Positions 31,439-46,032 of a stretch of 64,000 nt of DNA are shown here, in pieces (position 1 is the first letter of the stretch; each line of letters opens with the position of its first letter). Source of the DNA: Schmidtea nova (taxonomy: Eukaryota); NCBI GenBank assembly GCA_044892505.1, contig CM097883.1:42222001-42286000 (forward strand). Reading direction: 5' to 3'. Below the pieces are notes generated by a model that saw only the letters and a list, made by a program, of their open reading frames with translations, was not told the origin of the DNA and did no database searches. The position numbers and the translations under genes were made by a program.

Positions 31439-31753
31439 CTAAAAATGCTAAAGAATATCAACAAATTAATTTCTTATTTAGCTACTAGCAAAATTATATA
31501 ATTTTAAAATTTTAAAATTTTAAAATCTTGCATATCGAATGATTTAAACATTGTACAACACGTTTTGGAAAAAAAATAATTATATATATTACGATAATTT
31601 TATCTAAATTCATTAATTATAATAACAGAAATAAAATAATTTTTTTAAATGTTTTAATATTGTTGCGTTGTTATATTAATTATTTTAAATTTACTAATTT
31701 TCTTTGATTTGTTTATTTAAACTATTTCATTTGCATTGTTTTTAATAAATGTT

Positions 31754-32179
31754 ATGAAGTTACAAATTGTTTGTGTAATTCTTTTTCTTAGCGTTGTCAA
31801 TTGCAATCCTATAACAAAGGTATCGGATAATGAAGACAATTTGATTTACGACTCTAACCAATCTCATTCACAGTCAAATCATGAACATTTTGTGGTCGAT
31901 TTCGGTCAATTAATCACTTCGGATTCTAAATTGATGAAAGAACTGTCGAATTTGTTAAATGAATTTGTAAAAACCCCATCAACTGAGTTGATTAATCAAA
32001 TCAAATTAGAATGGACAAATTTCAAAGCTAAATATAAGAAAATTTACAAAGATGTCAAAGAAGAATCTCATCGATTTTTGATTTTCTTAAAAAGTTATCT
32101 CAAAATAAAGCAACACAATTTGAAATTCGATGCGGGAACAGTTAAATTCAATATGTCAACTAATCATTTATCTGATCTA
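31754..32179 (+). CDS. Cathepsin L-like cysteine protease, first exon (signal peptide plus I29 inhibitor prodomain)
   Basis: MKLQIVCVILFLSVVNC signal peptide; WTNFKAKYKKIY..VKEESHRFLIF...IKQHN...FNMSTNHLSDL (ERFNIN/GNFD-like); GTGAGT donor at 32180; no catalytic exon found in the window. Confidence 0.85.
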
Positions 32180-32899
32180 GTGAGTGTTATTTCATTTATA
32201 TGAATCATGTTTAGGTAATTAGTTTTCTTTTGGTGGACATGATTTTCTTTGCTAATTTTTCTTTTTATATTATATTTCACTATTTCTACTTTTTCATGAT
32301 AAATAAAAGGTATCACTATCATATTTTATTATAAATAATGTTTAATAATATTAATGATCAATAATTAATTATTTAAACACTTTTTCAAAAACAATACGAT
32401 GGAACCGCTATTAATAAGCATAATTCGTCCCATAATCTTCCTCGTAACGTAGATTACTCGTTAATCGAGATTCCACTGTACATATAGTTTGTTCATATAT
32501 ACGAGATTGAATGTCTGTCACACAAAGCGCGCCCAAAATCGAAATTCTAGGACCACAGAAATCTGCATTGTCAATATTAGTTTAATACATAAAATAATAC
32601 AAAGCTTCAGTAGTATCTGCTTATTATCAAATTCGAAACATCCTGTTAGGAACACTTTCAAATATTTATTCAAACGAATTAAAGAATCTAAATTCTTTCA
32701 ATAACCGAAATCAGTTTTCACTGTTTCAATTTTTATTTTCATTAATATTTAGAATTGATATAACAGTTAATTGACTTCCACAAACTAGATTGTTAGTTTC
32801 CCATTTTTATTATGTTAGAATATGCGGTTTTATCTCTTATAGTGAAACAACTGTTTTGTTGAATCACGAGATCTCATTGTTTGTTGATAAAGATTAGCT

Positions 32900-34100
32900 G
32901 GTATAAGTATACAATAGGGGGGCCACTTTTTTTTAATTAAATTAAATAAATTTTAAATTATAATAAATTATTAATTTAATAAAAAGAGTATAATAAAATA
33001 CTTATATATAGGGAAGACTATTAAGTCAGTTTTTATTTAAGTTAACGTTACACAACACTTAAATCATATCGTTGTCTTATTTGATCAATCAATATATCAA
33101 ACGCTCGCTCATTTTGACAAAACCTTCTTCTCCACATGAATTCGTCGAGGTACGAAGGAATGAAGCTACATCGTGTCCCAAACATATACTTAAATTTTCG
33201 TTTACACAACGCCCACGAACCTTCTATTCCGTTGGTGTTAACGCCGGTAACGGGATCAATGAAGTGTTCCGAGTGATTCACCCACTGGTGTACATACGGT
33301 CCCAATTTAGCTAAAGGTGTAGGGGCATTTGGGTCTCGTCTGGGACCACCAGTATAAGTAGAGAATTCATCAGTCCAAATAGTCGTTCCCGGGAGTACAA
33401 CACGCGAAAAAATTGGAAATATTTCTTGTTGAGTCCTATTATAAACGAACTCGAAGTGTACATTCTTCGTAGTACAGTCTATAATTCCGAAAACCCAACC
33501 ACTGCGTGCATTCCCTCTCGGTTCTCCGCGATTATGCATCAAATTCATAAATTTCGATTCATCCGCTTGCACGATATGATCAACTCCACCAAATAGTAAA
33601 GGCTGAGAAACCAACTTCCAACTGGCAATATCTCTAAAATACTGGTACCATTGAATGATAGTTTTTTTTGAAATATTAGTAAAAAGCTGAACTTGTTTAA
33701 CAGAGCATTCCGCGCCCCAAAAATACATTAGTAGGAAAAGATCACGAATATGTAATTTGGAATTACAAAAAAAACTCCCGGTTGTAATTGTTTGTTTGTT
33801 GCGATGCGGATTTACGTGTGACCGACTACGACAAACAAATATATATTCATTTACTACTTTTGAATCTTTTACAAGTTTCATAATGCGTCCGCAGTTTGAG
33901 CAGGTGGGATCGGCTCGTAGCAAACCTACTCTTTGGAAATGTCTTATTAAAGACAGTGTGTCACGCGAAAGTTCATATATTTGTTGTAAATTCATGGCTT
34001 ATGATATATTTTAAAATTTAATTGATTATATTTATATTTATATATTTAAATTTATTTAATTTAATTAAAAAAAGTGGCCCCCCTATTGTATACTTATACC
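32900..34100 (-). mobile_element. Merlin (IS1595/ISXO2-like) DNA transposon, apparently intact
   Basis: ~50-bp TIRs starting GGTATAAGTATACAATAGGGGGGCCACTTTT (one indel); perfect 8-bp TSD GATTAGCT (32892-32899, 34101-34108); single uninterrupted ORF. Confidence 0.96.
33048..33995 (-). CDS. Merlin/ISXO2-like DDE transposase, 315 aa
   Basis: CSNC zinc ribbon, HTH, VQADES (D), IWTDEFSTY (D), VNHSEHF.DP.TGVNTNGIEGSW (E), YLDEFMWRR. Confidence 0.95.
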   Translation of the reverse strand: MNLQQIYELSRDTLSLIRHFQRVGLLRADPTCSNCGRIMKLVKDSKVVNEYIFVCRSRSHVNPHRNKQTITTGSFFCNSKLHIRDLFLLMYFWGAECSVKQVQLFTNISKKTIIQWYQYFRDIASWKLVSQPLLFGGVDHIVQADESKFMNLMHNRGEPRGNARSGWVFGIIDCTTKNVHFEFVYNRTQQEIFPIFSRVVLPGTTIWTDEFSTYTGGPRRDPNAPTPLAKLGPYVHQWVNHSEHFIDPVTGVNTNGIEGSWALCKRKFKYMFGTRCSFIPSYLDEFMWRRRFCQNERAFDILIDQIRQRYDLSVV

Positions 34101-38758: not shown

Positions 38759-39358
38759 TTATTTATAGTTTAATAACACTGACGGTCTAATCACATTTAG
38801 GAGTTCTTGTTCAGATAGACCACTGAGCAAGTCTACTTCTATTCCTAGGCGATCCGCATACGCACGTCGCTCTCTCCGCTTTTTCGATCCGAGGCGATTC
38901 CTTCTCTTCGTTCGTTTTGAGCCTGCTGGAGTTCTCGTTGTCGACTCGATCGTCGTGATTGCGACTGCATCTGTTTCCGTTTGGGTACTCGTAGTTACCG
39001 ATATCGAGTCCACCCATCGGTTAAAAGTGCTTGCCCGGATCACTGGGTGCAATTGCTCGGTAATAAATTCCTGGGTCGATACCCTCAAGTAGTTCGAGAG
39101 CTCCATCTTTAGTGCTGCTACCTCTCTAGCTTGTTCGTCGACTGTTCGTTCCGCCCGGTATCTGGCTTGTAGTATGGCCTTAACCCGCTCTGGGTTAAAC
39201 CACGTGGTTTTAATCCGCTGATGCTCGTCATTTAACTGTCTTAAACGATTCTCCAAAACTCGTGAACGCGCCTTATGTTCTCGCGCCTTTTGCTTGTACT
39301 CTCTATCTTTGGTTTCGTTCATGTCTGTAAATATAACCTCAATTATGGTATATGTCAT
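38759..39358 (-). CDS. Orphan protein, 199 aa, N-terminal coiled coil and basic C-terminal patch
   Basis: Uninterrupted, GC-richer ORF; stop overlaps AATAAA (38758-38763); RSRVLENRLRQLNDE heptads; KRTKRRNRLGSKKRRERR NLS-like stretch. Confidence 0.6.
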   Translation of the reverse strand: MTYTIIEVIFTDMNETKDREYKQKAREHKARSRVLENRLRQLNDEHQRIKTTWFNPERVKAILQARYRAERTVDEQAREVAALKMELSNYLRVSTQEFITEQLHPVIRASTFNRWVDSISVTTSTQTETDAVAITTIESTTRTPAGSKRTKRRNRLGSKKRRERRAYADRLGIEVDLLSGLSEQELLNVIRPSVLLNYK

Positions 39359-39510
39359 TTGTCCGGTCTTTCAGTCATCCTTTCGTTATTAAACAACTAT
39401 ACCACATCATCATGATATTCTCATACGCTCGAAACCAAAACAAGACCATTCTCACACAAATGCATTTATTTTTATATTTACAACAAACATTCTTTCTCGG
39501 GCTGTGTCAA

Positions 39511-40146
39511 TCAACTGAATGCTCGCAATTCCTGGTCGGCAGGATTCTCGTCGCGACGAATTCCGCTTTCCAAATACATCTCTGGAGCTGGGTTCCAACT
39601 CAACTTATCTCTGTAGGTAAACACCTCCCAGAGGCGAAGCTCCTTGGGCTCGGGGTGTTGATCTAATGACACGCTTCCTGGCGCGTTGGAGTAGGCGAAG
39701 ACTTCCTCAGTGTAGCGACACCGAGGCCTGTCTAGCAGCGTGTATCCTAGTCGATATAGAGCCCTTCCCGTCAACATTCCAGTGCTCAATAACCAACGGG
39801 GTCGTTTCTGCTCATCGAGGAATTGGTAGAACCATCCGTCGGTTCTTGGGTCGGCAGGGGCTAAGGTGGACGTCCAATCGGTGTCTCCTTCCCATCGCAG
39901 TTGTATAGTGAAGGCGCAGGCCGGAATATCGGCGGCTGCACTCATATGATTTCTTATCCACCGGCGTAAGTGTCGGCGTGCAATTTCGCTAATTCGGCGG
40001 GGGGCTTCCGTTTCTCCCTCGATGGTGGGGTTCCTCTTTGGCCGGATGACGGAGCGGGTACGCCGTCTTTTCCGGATGACATAATCCTCCACTTTCATAT
40101 GTCGCGAGTCGATCAGATCCTTTTGATATTTCTCGATTTTTATCAT
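39511..40146 (-). CDS. Orphan protein, 211 aa
   Basis: Uninterrupted ORF with GTATAAATA ~55 nt upstream (40201-40209) and AATAAA at 39465-39470; basic N-terminus RKRRRTR, Trp-rich core. Confidence 0.6.
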   Translation of the reverse strand: MIKIEKYQKDLIDSRHMKVEDYVIRKRRRTRSVIRPKRNPTIEGETEAPRRISEIARRHLRRWIRNHMSAAADIPACAFTIQLRWEGDTDWTSTLAPADPRTDGWFYQFLDEQKRPRWLLSTGMLTGRALYRLGYTLLDRPRCRYTEEVFAYSNAPGSVSLDQHPEPKELRLWEVFTYRDKLSWNPAPEMYLESGIRRDENPADQELRAFS

Positions 40147-41126
40147 GTGACTGAATACAAGAGCTAGGTTAATGTGATAGATTTGTCGGGTGAGTGTAAT
40201 TATTTATACCCGTCGACCTACTCGACTTAATGGTAAAACGCTGTAGGCCTTGGTAGATCGGTTTTCATTTTTACTAAACCAGAGACGGTAATGTAGTATG
40301 GGTCGTGCATTATGGTTTAGTGTAGTAGACTATTCTACTCTGTATTTTTATTCAACTAGTTAACCACGCTCAATTGATTTTGGTCGTTACTGGATTAGAT
40401 TTATTTTTGTTGTTCATCAACTATGTACACACGACAATTTCTCACTAGGAGACGCTATTACCAACTACCAAATTTACATTTGTTTTCCATTCATCACACC
40501 CATTCTCTCAGTCATGCTCTATGCCTGGACAACACGATTGCCTATTCATTTTAGTTTTACATCAGCCACACTCAGTCACTCGATATTTTTATTTGAAGAA
40601 CATCCTCGTTAACTAACGATGGTCATGTCATAAGGGGAATATCGACAATCCCTTACTCAAGTTGGGTTGATGCTTCTGGTATGATCGTTAACTAATTGGT
40701 GGGGTTGACCTTTTGTGCCCTTCGAGGGTCGCATGTAGGTGTTGGAATACCTGGTTGATTTATATCTCGGACCCAAACACTTTGGTCTCTGAACTCACAT
40801 GACTTATGTATGGTGTATTTCTACCCTCGTCAGCGCTCAATTTATCCGACTTGATGTTGTTTATCGTGATACATATCCTCTATACAAGGCTATCGCTACT
40901 TTAATCGACTTTACGAACGCTGGATACCCTATTGATCTATTAACAAGCCTGTTACGTGTACTCATTTACTCGATGTCGTCGTGACAGATAATGCATCCTT
41001 CGATTACTTTTACTCATACTGATGTTACGAGGGTATCGGACATCCTATGTGCATTTGTCCCCCTTCCGTTTACTAAATTTTTAGGAAACCTATGGTCCCG
41101 CCGCATCAGCACCTCACATGAAAATG

Positions 41127-41750
41127 TGTTGCGCTGAGAGGCCCAAGAATCCGTCAGGCTGTCAGGCCTCCGGAAAACCTTATTGATTTTAAGATAGTTA
41201 TAATTATGAGGGTTTAAAGTAACAATATAACACACAACAATTACCTTTTATTTTTCCTTCAAGTTGGATTTACAATGTTCTCAGTGCTCAACTGCAAGTT
41301 ACACTTGGTAAAATAACATTGACAAATACTGATTTGACTTCAGTATTTATACTCAACCGGTGTTGTTGGTTAGCCAATCAGCATCGAGTATGTGTGTATG
41401 TTTGCTTCATTTTTTCATGTTGTCGGCTTTTTGCTGCCTAACTTAACTCACTGATTTATTTGTTTAATCATGCGGTAAGTTTTTCTTTGTCATCAATTTA
41501 TTTTATTTTATTTTTGTTTTAGATCTTCGGTGACATCCGCCCACGCGCTGTCATATTCAGATTTTATCTGCTTCGCATGAGTGAGTTTTTGAGTTTTATT
41601 TTTGTTTTGATTAATACCTTATTTCTTTTAGATGTTGCCGCTTATTTGCTACTTTTTTAGCTGGTAATTTGTTTTATTGTTATTTTGTGTAGCTTTATTT
41701 TATTGATTGCATATTATTTTCAGATGCTGCTCGATTTGGCTGGCCCAACA
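41127..41750 (-). mobile_element. LTR-like family B copy 1 (624 bp, TGTTG...CAACA)
   Basis: Starts TGTTGGGCCAGCCAA at 41750 and ends GCGCAACA at 41127. CCAAT box 41374-41378, GTATAAATA 41344-41352, AATAAA. Sequence after the end resembles that after copy 2. Confidence 0.8.
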
Positions 41751-43257: not shown

Positions 43258-44190
43258 TTACGCTTGGTGGTGTAATTGATCAATATAGGTCGTTGTATCG
43301 TATATATGAATTTTGCAATAGATAGCATTTTTTCTGGCATCTGTCCAAGCAGGATTAATAATATTATCCAATTCGTTTCCCAGTATAATTCTTGGTAATC
43401 CGGCAGTTATGATACCTGTTCCACATTTAACATTAGAGAAGTGGTGAATTTAGTGTCACATAAATTGATGAGCTCCTCGGGTTCCCATTTATGTAATGGT
43501 AAATCATCAATAACGATTCCGTCGTATTGTTTCTTTTCTGGCCCGAGCTTTTCAAAATCTCGCCCAATACTTATGTGTAAAGGGCTCGAAAAATGTGACA
43601 GTGCATAATTTGTTTTACCGATTCCAGTAGCCCCGACCATAACGACAGCGCGCTCTTCAAATTTACAGAATGGTAAACACCAGTTTCGTTATACTGTGGC
43701 TTAGTAACGATACCAATTTTCCTATTGACATAAATATTAATTATTTGAGCAAAATAATAAATAAATATGTCACTTTATTAAGCATGATTCTAATTTTTGG
43801 CTCATTCGAATAATGTCTAGTGGTTTCTCATTCTCAACCATAGCAAGGCCTTCTGATATCGCATTAGACTCTAAAAACTTTGTCAAAAAATCCTCATCGG
43901 CTAATGGACGTTTACCGTATTCCCAAAAGTGGCCATTATCCACAGTAGACAATTTATTACGTCTTTATACTCAAATCCGAATACATAATTAAACTCATAT
44001 TTTTTATGAATTGCCCAGTACGTTGACGAATTGTTCAATATTAGCATGCATTCCATGTGGTCATGACCTCCCGAACTTATCTCTTGTTTCATGAGCACAT
44101 ATTTGCAAGTTTCTTTTAATATTACTTGCAAACTATCTTTACGTCGTAAATAATCCGACGTAGGGATCGAAATAGTTTTAATCGCTTTCT
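43258..44190 (-). pseudogene. rep: Endogenous CRESS-DNA-virus-like Rep (HUH endonuclease plus SF3 helicase), gemini/genomovirus-like, frameshifted
   Basis: KYVLMKQEISSGGHDHMECML (motif II context, HDH at 44057-44065); YC..DNGHFWEYG (degenerate motif III); Walker A GATGIGKT (43611-43634); Walker B DGIVIDD; NVKCGTGIITAGLPRIILGN (B'/C); stop at 43258; at least 3 frameshifts. Confidence 0.9.
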
Positions 44191-44199
44191 GTTAAGAGC

Positions 44200-44961
44200 T
44201 GCTCGTTTTGCTTTGTCTTCGTTATCTCCATATCCTGTTTGGACTCGTCCTCCTACAACTGCTGTTTCTCCGCCAGACAATTGACTGGGAATATGAGGCC
44301 CATTTTCCTGAGAAACTGGTCGGTGAACACCACTTTGCAGTTGATTCTGGGGCAATTTGTTAGAGCTAGCCATTGTAACCTCTGCCATATCAGTATGAGT
44401 AATTCCGGCGCTAGATATAGCTGGCTTTCTCCGCATATTGCTTGCACATTATTTGGAGTATTGTCGAATACCTTCCGATGTTTAAGTGAATCAATATCTC
44501 TTGGAGAAGTTTCTCCAAATCCACCCAGTTCGTCGATCCGAGTAAGATTTTTGTATTTCTTTTTCTCGGAGTTCCGCATTCTGGGGCCGGGTCATCATTA
44601 TAACGTCTATCAATTGGGCTTCCAGCATTGCATTGATACCTTCGCTTATTTTGTGCTCCAGCTCTAGCCTGTTGACCGAATACAACTTTGTATTAATAAA
44701 CATTACGAAATTGATATACGGTCACCTTTTTGGCATCACCATGTTCGGGTTTATCCCTCGGATCTGGGCCACGAGCCTCGGGGGTATGGAATTGAGTATC
44801 GTTTCCGACTCCCTCAGAATCTGGAAGGGGGATGCGAGATAATATTTCGTCCACTGAGTCGTCAGTCCAATCGTCCGGAAATTGAGACACCATTGTGAAC
44901 TTGCTTCCCGTATATTCATTATTTCTTCGTCCTTTAGCTTTATCCTTTCCTCGTCATTCAT
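44200..44961 (-). pseudogene. Frameshifted orphan ORF immediately upstream of Rep
   Basis: Overlapping minus-strand ORF pieces (44722-44961, 44693-44893, 44491-44703, 44253-44579, 44122-44436) in GC-richer DNA; no family recognised. Confidence 0.45.
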
Positions 44962-45507
44962 TGTCAGTCATTGGTGAATGTTAAAATGACATTCTGTTGC
45001 AGTATAAATACAGGGGTGAGAGAGAGAAAATCATTTACATGTCTTGCAATTTTGCTTACCCGGATAGGCCAATCATACGCTCATGCACACAACAATGCAA
45101 AAATAATAAAAATAAAAAAAGCTTCTCTCGGACCGATTTCATTTCTCCCGGCGAGAAATAGCTAATCACCAATTCCATAATTCTCCTTTTTAATTCCCCA
45201 ATAAGTTCCTTCTCCGACGACATGATGACCTTTAATAAAAATACAGCATTAATCTCATCTCCGCTTTCTGACCCGATATCTTAAACTTTTACAGGTGGAC
45301 TCGCGTTTCCACGACGGCAACTCTACTACCCCTCTCGATTTCCTCTAAATTTGTCTCAGCTCATTTACTCTACTTTCTCATTCTCTGTATTTTTTATCTA
45401 GACTCACCCCCACCCCAGAAAAATATATAATAAGTTGACCATAATAAAAATAATTTAATAAACTATCATAGACAAGAATCAAACTCAGAATTTCAAATAC
45501 ATAACAT

Positions 45508-46032
45508 TTATTTTACGCTATGACAGGTCAAGAACAACTACGATAAGTCCGAAATGAACCAGTTCTCCGCATTTCCCGATCGACACTTATCATTCCTCGA
45601 AATTTGGACTATATGGAGACTCGGTAGGGCATGTGCTGGAGTAAGGTCAAGCATGATCCGACCCAGACTCCATAACTCTTCCTGGGGAATCGTCCCCAAT
45701 TAGTAAATTCGATTACGCCCTGGGATCTCGGTAGGTGTTTCTACAAAGTATGATGGTAGATCGGCTGGGTACTTCCTATCGACGTCGATTGACCACGTGC
45801 TACTCCCGTGCCATATTATCGTGTCGGGACTGTCTCGCAATAAGCTAAATGGCGGGACAATCCCATCTTTTTCGAACACCTACTGATGTTCCGATAGAAT
45901 TTCGCCTGCCAAATTTGGGGGTATATTTTTTACGGGTACTGCCATCACCCAAAAATTATCTTCTGACTTCGGCCCTTCCTCGTAAAATGAATCAACTCGA
46001 TGGCCATTTATGCTTATACAGATTCGCTCCAT
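45508..46032 (-). pseudogene. Orphan 175-codon ORF relic with three in-frame stops
   Basis: MERICISINGHRVDSFYEEGPKSEDNFWVMAV...; single frame with no indels; final TAA overlaps AATAAA (45507-45512). Not in the ORF track. Confidence 0.55.

What the first reader, a model, noticed from the sequence alone, without database searches (positions are those of the whole stretch)
43722..43773. 52-nt spliceosomal intron separating Rep nuclease and helicase (RepA/Rep-like switch)
Seen: an AT-rich GTGACA...CAATAG segment on the minus strand lies between the HUH and helicase halves. Splicing it (AA|G) gives ...CLIKKIGIVTKPQYN(E)NWCLPFCKFEERAVVMVGATGIGKT, needing only one further 1-nt repair in an A-run. 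Retaining it gives an immediate TGA, i.e. a helicase-less protein. Its size matches the host's 42-48 nt introns. Known: mastreviruses make Rep versus RepA by alternative splicing, and genomovirus Reps also carry introns. Inference: the virus used host-sized introns, pointing to long adaptation to this host.
Basis: partly seen in the sequence, partly recalled or inferred. Interest (0 to 1): 0.75.

Follow-up and report, generated by a model that had tools for sequence, protein, structure and literature searches.

The report
Virus Rep introns that change position
A dead, chromosome-embedded copy of a small DNA virus's replication gene carries a 52-base insert that is likely a host-sized intron, and relatives of the gene lack it but carry their own likely introns elsewhere, which points to repeated intron gain in this virus family rather than an on/off switch.

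Summary
The segment is real: GT...AG, 52 nt, 17% G+C. It is a clean 52-nt insert against 9 of 10 paralogs in the same genome (the tenth has a larger deletion) and all 4 outside relatives aligned. Its size matches host introns (median 54, n=19). It is likely a spliceosomal intron (about 0.85); no RNA run was available.

The Rep/RepA switch is not supported. No relative has an intron at this codon (one deleted sister copy is ambiguous). Retention adds no new residues. An immediate stop is the default for phase-2 introns here: 23 of 38 element introns start GTAA/GTGA. This copy is dead, with motif I frame-broken, motif III missing and two more breaks.

The better finding lies around it. Each lineage of this CRESS-type Rep family has its own one to three short GT-AG inserts, at about 10 different sites from motif I to the helicase end, with no excess between nuclease and helicase (3 of 10 sites, 30% of the length). 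That pattern suggests repeated intron gain in a small ssDNA virus family.

The parts
43722..43773 (-). 52-nt GT-AG insert, likely spliceosomal intron (site A), phase 2, length 3n+1
43774..43949 (-). Rep exon part upstream of the intron (linker after motif III); 57-67% identical to paralogs
43945..43960 (-). Break: RCR motif III (YxxK in paralogs) is missing and the frame changes
43961..44170 (-). Nuclease part with motif II (HMEC at about 44059-44048)
44160..44180 (-). Frame break inside the motif I region, which is unbroken in L056 and L061
43688..43721 (-). About 11 codons of exon after the acceptor, then a frame break near 43690
43435..43688 (-). SF3 helicase part: Walker A 43634-43611, Walker B about 43517-43503; frame break near 43435
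43261..43434 (-). End of the helicase (motif C region)
44494..44980 (-). 5' part of the element with overlapping frames; 77% identical to L108 over 464 nt
45120..46000 (-). Multi-copy segment upstream of the Rep gene (46 matches in the genome); link to the element not settled
38762..41750 (-). Downstream module with two ORFs of unknown family (39514-40203, 38762-39370); 82% nt and 79-89% aa identical to the stretch after a family-A Rep in L050

Best explanation
The 52-nt segment is likely an ordinary, always-removed spliceosomal intron that this one lineage of a CRESS-type (PEVE-like) Rep gene probably gained, now sitting in a dead chromosomal copy, and it likely never served as a Rep/RepA switch. 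Shown: the insert, its ends, size and phase, its absence from relatives, their other inserts, and the breaks in this copy. Inferred: splicing by the host's major spliceosome; gain rather than loss; gain while the element still replicated; decay of unspliced transcripts because of the early stop.
For: Exact 52-nt gap against 9 of 10 paralogs and 4 of 4 outside relatives. GT..AG, AT-rich; host introns median 54 nt; element introns 38-56 nt, n=38 (two rows dropped, see full report). The tree groups copies as their introns do: window+L040+L023 (UFBoot 96); L005/L012/L021/L032/L033 with sites D and B (98); L002/L003/L004/L037 with site C (96). Family A, L046, L112, L129, L132 and L139 lack site A, so one gain is simpler than several losses. 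An immediate stop also occurs at site C and at the Arg-finger site (5 of 10 phase-2 introns tabulated). 8 of 9 clean host myosin introns also hold an in-frame stop. 3 of 10 core sites fall between motif III and Walker A, which is 95 of about 314 codons.
Against: No spliced read was seen. Site A is found whole in one copy only, so gain before integration is not shown. L040 keeps CAATAG before the downstream exon, but its deletion makes this ambiguous. Protein similarity favours a cut 4-5 nt to the left of the GT-AG register (mean BLOSUM62 18.6 against 13.7), so the AG may be old exon sequence and the GT partly chance. The donor GTGA is the rarer type (3 of 38). The tree rests on 256 columns anchored on the window, with much missing data.
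Confidence: 0.75

Rival explanations
1. A regulated Rep/RepA-like switch: retention makes a helicase-less Rep with its own job, as in mastreviruses.
For: The intron lies between nuclease and helicase and retention stops translation at once. Two other clades in this genome also have a phase-2 intron in that interval (sites B and C). Helicase-less isoforms exist in other Reps (passages; 'Isoform Rep-prime' entry 8h56).
Against: Position not conserved; family A, L046, L112, L129, L132, L139 have no intron in the interval. No enrichment there (3 of 10 sites, 30% of length). No new C-terminal residues. 23 of 38 element donors would give the same stop in phase 2. L021 lacks site B inside the clade that has it.
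Confidence: 0.07
2. Not an intron: AT-rich filler DNA inserted into an already dead copy, with GT..AG partly by chance.
For: The copy has four other breaks. The homology-best cut is 4-5 nt off the GT-AG register. Only this copy shows the whole insert.
Against: Chance of GT..AG in any of 13 registers is 1.9% by shuffle (higher, perhaps 5-10%, if the AG is old exon sequence: my estimate). The size falls in the narrow intron range. Sister clades have shared introns. L040 keeps the same six letters before the exon.
Confidence: 0.12
3. An old intron of the family ancestor, lost in all other lineages (loss rather than gain).
For: Loss seems to occur: L021 lacks site B although nested among carriers.
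Against: Needs at least four losses on the tree, and an ancestor with about ten introns that no sampled relative resembles.
Confidence: 0.06

Closest known systems
Mastrevirus, capulavirus, becurtovirus and grablovirus Rep/RepA (C1:C2 intron)
   Same: A GT-AG intron between nuclease and helicase must be removed to make full Rep (PMC13649057, passages).
   Different: There the site is a genus-wide trait and unspliced C1 gives a RepA protein with its own tail and partners (tail and partners recalled). Here the site is private, retention adds nothing, and the family has about ten other sites.
Genomovirus Rep intron
   Same: Intron in Rep of a small circular ssDNA virus (PMC11052389, passages).
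   Different: One site per Rep is described there; here lineages differ in site and number, and the host is an animal-type genome.
PEVE / PIVE virus-like elements of planarians
   Same: Rep-type and NS1/E1-type helicases in one element family, integrated copies known (PMC3198968, passages; two-helicase layout recalled from the PEVE abstract). Family-A loci L014 and L050 have a Parvo_NS1 gene near Rep.
   Different: No NS1-like gene was found in this window. The PEVE paper was not held and no named PEVE sequence was compared, so membership is untested.
Mirusvirus spliceosomal introns
   Same: Host-sized GT-AG introns whose places vary between close relatives, read as dynamic gain and loss (PMC12768974, section 8 read whole).
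   Different: Those are giant dsDNA viruses, some with introners or intron-encoded nucleases. This is a small ssDNA-type Rep with 38-56 nt introns and no repeat of this intron in the genome.

Membership tests
Spliceosomal (U2-type) intron | GT donor and AG acceptor | tested here: met
Spliceosomal (U2-type) intron | Removal restores colinearity with intron-free homologs | tested here: met
   52-column gap in 9 of 10 and 4 of 4; best-scoring cut is 4-5 nt off
Spliceosomal (U2-type) intron | Size and composition like host introns | tested here: met
   52 nt, G+C 0.17; host 46-81, median 54, n=19
Spliceosomal (U2-type) intron | Removed from RNA | not testable with these tools
   no RNA run to lay
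Geminivirus Rep/RepA switch | Intron between nuclease and helicase | tested here: met
Geminivirus Rep/RepA switch | Site conserved across the lineage | tested here: not met
   absent in 13 of 13 informative relatives aligned; L040 ambiguous
Geminivirus Rep/RepA switch | Unspliced product has its own C-terminal part (feature recalled) | tested here: not met
   stop follows the split codon
Geminivirus Rep/RepA switch | Both forms are made | not testable with these tools
   no RNA or protein data; this copy is a pseudogene
CRESS-DNA virus Rep | HUH nuclease plus SF3 helicase in one gene | tested here: met
   family profile hits solved Reps (7lar E 5.7e-6, 6h8o, 2hwt); relatives hit Viral_Rep weakly, one over cut-off; one is named CRESS Rep
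CRESS-DNA virus Rep | Intact motifs I, II, III, Walker A and B in this copy | tested here: not met
   II, A, B present; I frame-broken; III missing (motif labels by alignment and recall)
PEVE/PIVE elements | Rep plus NS1/E1-type helicase | tested here: inconclusive
   seen beside family-A Reps, not in the window
PEVE/PIVE elements | Sequence kinship to the described PEVE | not testable with these tools
   paper not held; no named record compared
Introner (intron-making transposon) | Many similar copies of the intron in the genome | tested here: not met
   first 27 nt, up to 2 mismatches: 1 match, itself; old diverged copies would be missed

The most novel reading that the evidence does not exclude
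PEVE-like ssDNA viruses are a fast intron-gain system: each lineage makes new, host-sized spliceosomal introns in its essential Rep gene, about ten sites in one family, without a recognisable introner, so the birth of introns can be followed in a 1-kb gene.
Probability: 0.5. Interest if true: 0.65.

Novelty: new variant of a known kind. Interest (0 to 1): 0.42.

Why it matters
Introns in CRESS-virus Reps are known, but as a fixed site tied to Rep/RepA. Here the site is a free variable within one family. If gains dominate, this is a compact natural series for how new spliceosomal introns arise, a question with few clean cases. In practice, Rep genes of this group will be mis-called or missed by gene finders that ignore introns (P0001 appears to read through one), and an intron between nuclease and helicase should not be taken as a sign of a RepA switch.

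Tried and rejected
No RNA holder listed for the locus: no evidence either way. Word-based protein searches with the helicase piece and a family-A Rep found nothing; single-protein scans of viral contigs found nothing; the single-sequence PDB search gave only chance hits. Profiles and the full HMMER scan did find relatives. The Atlas did not hold the sequence. A second candidate intron in the window (44725-44686, 40 nt) was rejected: the one close paralog L108 has AA in place of AG and keeps the interior like exon. The L024 3' match was dropped as a mis-parse (G+C 0.38, wrong downstream frame). The first 90-nt myosin parse was wrong and was replaced by 55 and 53 nt read by eye; parses of L081 and L094 were left out as unsure, L076 and L078 gave none. 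L040 as proof of a shared intron: ambiguous. L023 and L108, the other clade mates, do not reach the site. No DNA-level near copy of the Rep gene exists. Literature: no paper held all of 'CRESS, introns, Rep gene, spliceosomal' or 'ssDNA virus, intron gain, Rep'; searches listed nothing on introns in planarian Rep elements by title or abstract. The library lacks most subscription papers and the PEVE paper, and I read no supplements.

Full report
1. The observation. The - strand stretch 43773-43722 is 52 nt, GTGACA...CAATAG, G+C 0.17. It splits a codon after two bases (phase 2). Read unspliced, the next codon is TGA. Among 13 registers around it only this one has GT..AG ends; shuffles give 1.9% for any. 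Contigs of two DNA-type runs span it without gaps (one study).

2. Setting. The window lies in a 1.25-Gb AT-rich genome with a G-beta gene, a cathepsin propeptide and hAT and IS1595-like transposases, and myosin II genes, so an animal-type host. A planarian flatworm is my inference from the likeness to PEVE; I did not test it. The helicase piece has 59 matches in the genome, a lower bound. Most belong to a family A, 13 of the 59 in open frames of 400 aa or more that run unbroken from nuclease to helicase. About a dozen decayed copies, the window among them, form a family B. A family-A Rep has 1,091 relatives at E up to 0.001; one is named a CRESS-virus Rep, and the family profile hits solved Reps.

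3. It is an insert against relatives. Of 10 family-B paralogs aligned, 9 show a gap of exactly 52 columns; L005 has a larger deletion there. Of 41 outside loci, I examined the 4 that matched the window's linker piece: L112, L129, L132 and L139 all show the same 52-column gap. The flanks are colinear: window LESCLI-X-KIG against LESTLNRKLG (L004) and LEAILQRKIG (L012). One result cuts the other way: similarity to the nine paralogs is best if the cut lies 4-5 nt to the left (18.6 against 13.7). Part of this is automatic, since AG followed by G reads Arg, but it leaves open that the acceptor is old exon sequence used by a new insert.

4. Size. Host introns parsed from myosin loci L082, L077, L089 and the G-beta gene are 46-81 nt, median 54 (19 introns; dropped rows are listed under tried and rejected). 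Element introns are 38-56 nt (38 of 40 rows kept).

5. Relatives have other introns. In this genome: site D inside the nuclease (L005, L012, L032, L033; 53-56 nt), site C after motif III (L003, L004; decayed in L002, L037), site B just before Walker A (L005, L012, L032; absent in L021), and in family A one at the helicase end (17 of 21 loci) and one far upstream (11 of 21). Two of these rows have a GC donor. Outside: between motifs I and II (L112, 56 nt, frame-changing, in a Rep without other breaks), before motif I (L129, L132), after motif C (L139), at the Arg finger (L129, L132), and a 17-residue read-through in motif II of P0001, seen at protein level only. That makes 10 sites from motif I to the helicase end. 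The tree groups copies as their introns do (L036 left out for too few residues). All these introns are inferred from DNA; none has RNA support here. Sharing among diverged copies on different chromosomes shows that at least sites B, C, D and the family-A ones were carried by replicating elements.

6. No sign of a switch. In phase 2 a GTAA or GTGA donor makes a stop at once, and 23 of 38 element introns start so. The same immediate stop occurs at site C and at the Arg-finger site, where it would only cripple the helicase. 8 of 9 clean host introns also stop the frame. 3 of the 10 sites fall between motif III and Walker A, which is 95 of about 314 codons, as chance predicts. In geminiviruses the C1:C2 intron is shared across genera and unspliced C1 gives RepA (PMC13649057, passages; PMC4148390, passages); neither a conserved site nor an own tail is seen here.

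7. This copy is dead. The frame breaks in motif I near 44170, motif III is missing near 43950, and there are breaks near 43690 and 43435. Neither form could work from this locus.

8. Mechanism. Likely: an insert of AT-rich DNA entered the Rep gene of the window lineage, was tolerated because the host spliceosome removed it, and stayed. Unspliced RNA would likely be degraded for its early stop (general knowledge). The source is unknown: the first 27 nt occur once in the genome, so no young introner. Gain is preferred to loss by parsimony. Whether the gain came before integration is open: L040 keeps CAATAG at the exon edge but is deleted upstream, and L023 and L108 do not reach the site.

9. Known versus new. 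Introns in geminivirus and genomovirus Reps are known, CRESS genomes with intron-split Reps are noted in PMC6186406 (passages), and integrated planarian elements in PMC3198968 (passages). Two earlier AI notes of this scan report a single small intron in endogenous Reps of other genomes and call it ordinary (unchecked). Shifting intron sites are described for mirusviruses, and introners in dsDNA viral elements (PMC12166617, abstract). I found no paper on shifting intron sites in ssDNA-virus Reps (and listings of 19, 53, 62, 63, 69), within a library that lacks the PEVE paper.

10. Verdict. Intron likely real (about 0.85); switch unlikely (0.07); the turnover of intron sites across the family is the part worth following. 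Interest 0.42; new variant of a known kind.

Noticed in passing
window 38762-41750 (-) and L050 6691-9643: The module after the window's family-B Rep is 82% identical in DNA to the module after a family-A Rep, while the two Reps are about 40% alike in the helicase: module swapping or mixed tandem arrays. The two ORFs have no Pfam match.
   Followed up: partly
L050-L051 (G000:C3:153146001-153166000): An array within 20 kb: NS1-like gene, family-A Rep, the two unknown ORFs, a second family-A Rep, then a family-B Rep.
   Followed up: partly
window 45120-46000: Multi-copy segment (46 matches, 70-91% identical); in many other copies it runs into an ORF weakly like 38762-39370.
   Followed up: partly
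family-A loci, e.g. L011 673-1100 and L028 700-1000 (strand coordinates): A second reading frame overlaps the 5' part of Rep and has paired cysteines; family B and L112 also have overlapping 5' frames.
   Followed up: no
family-A loci, 3' intron: Splicing would add a conserved tail (NPYxNP) after the helicase, while retention would end Rep soon after a complete helicase; this site, shared by 17 of 21 loci, is a better candidate for two working isoforms than site A.
   Followed up: partly
P0001 residues about 109-125: A database Rep seems to be translated through an in-frame intron in motif II; P0003 starts inside the same stretch.
   Followed up: no
L112: 5.7-kb viral contig with a family-B-like Rep, two likely introns (48 and 56 nt), two large ORFs on the other strand and no NS1-like match; whether it is a described PEVE segment was not established.
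   Followed up: partly
window 33051-33998 (-): Open 316-codon IS1595/ISXO2-like transposase frame (Pfam E 5.7e-14).
   Followed up: no
window 31721-32200 (+): Cathepsin propeptide (I29) exon; the next exons were not seen in 32200-33100.
   Followed up: no
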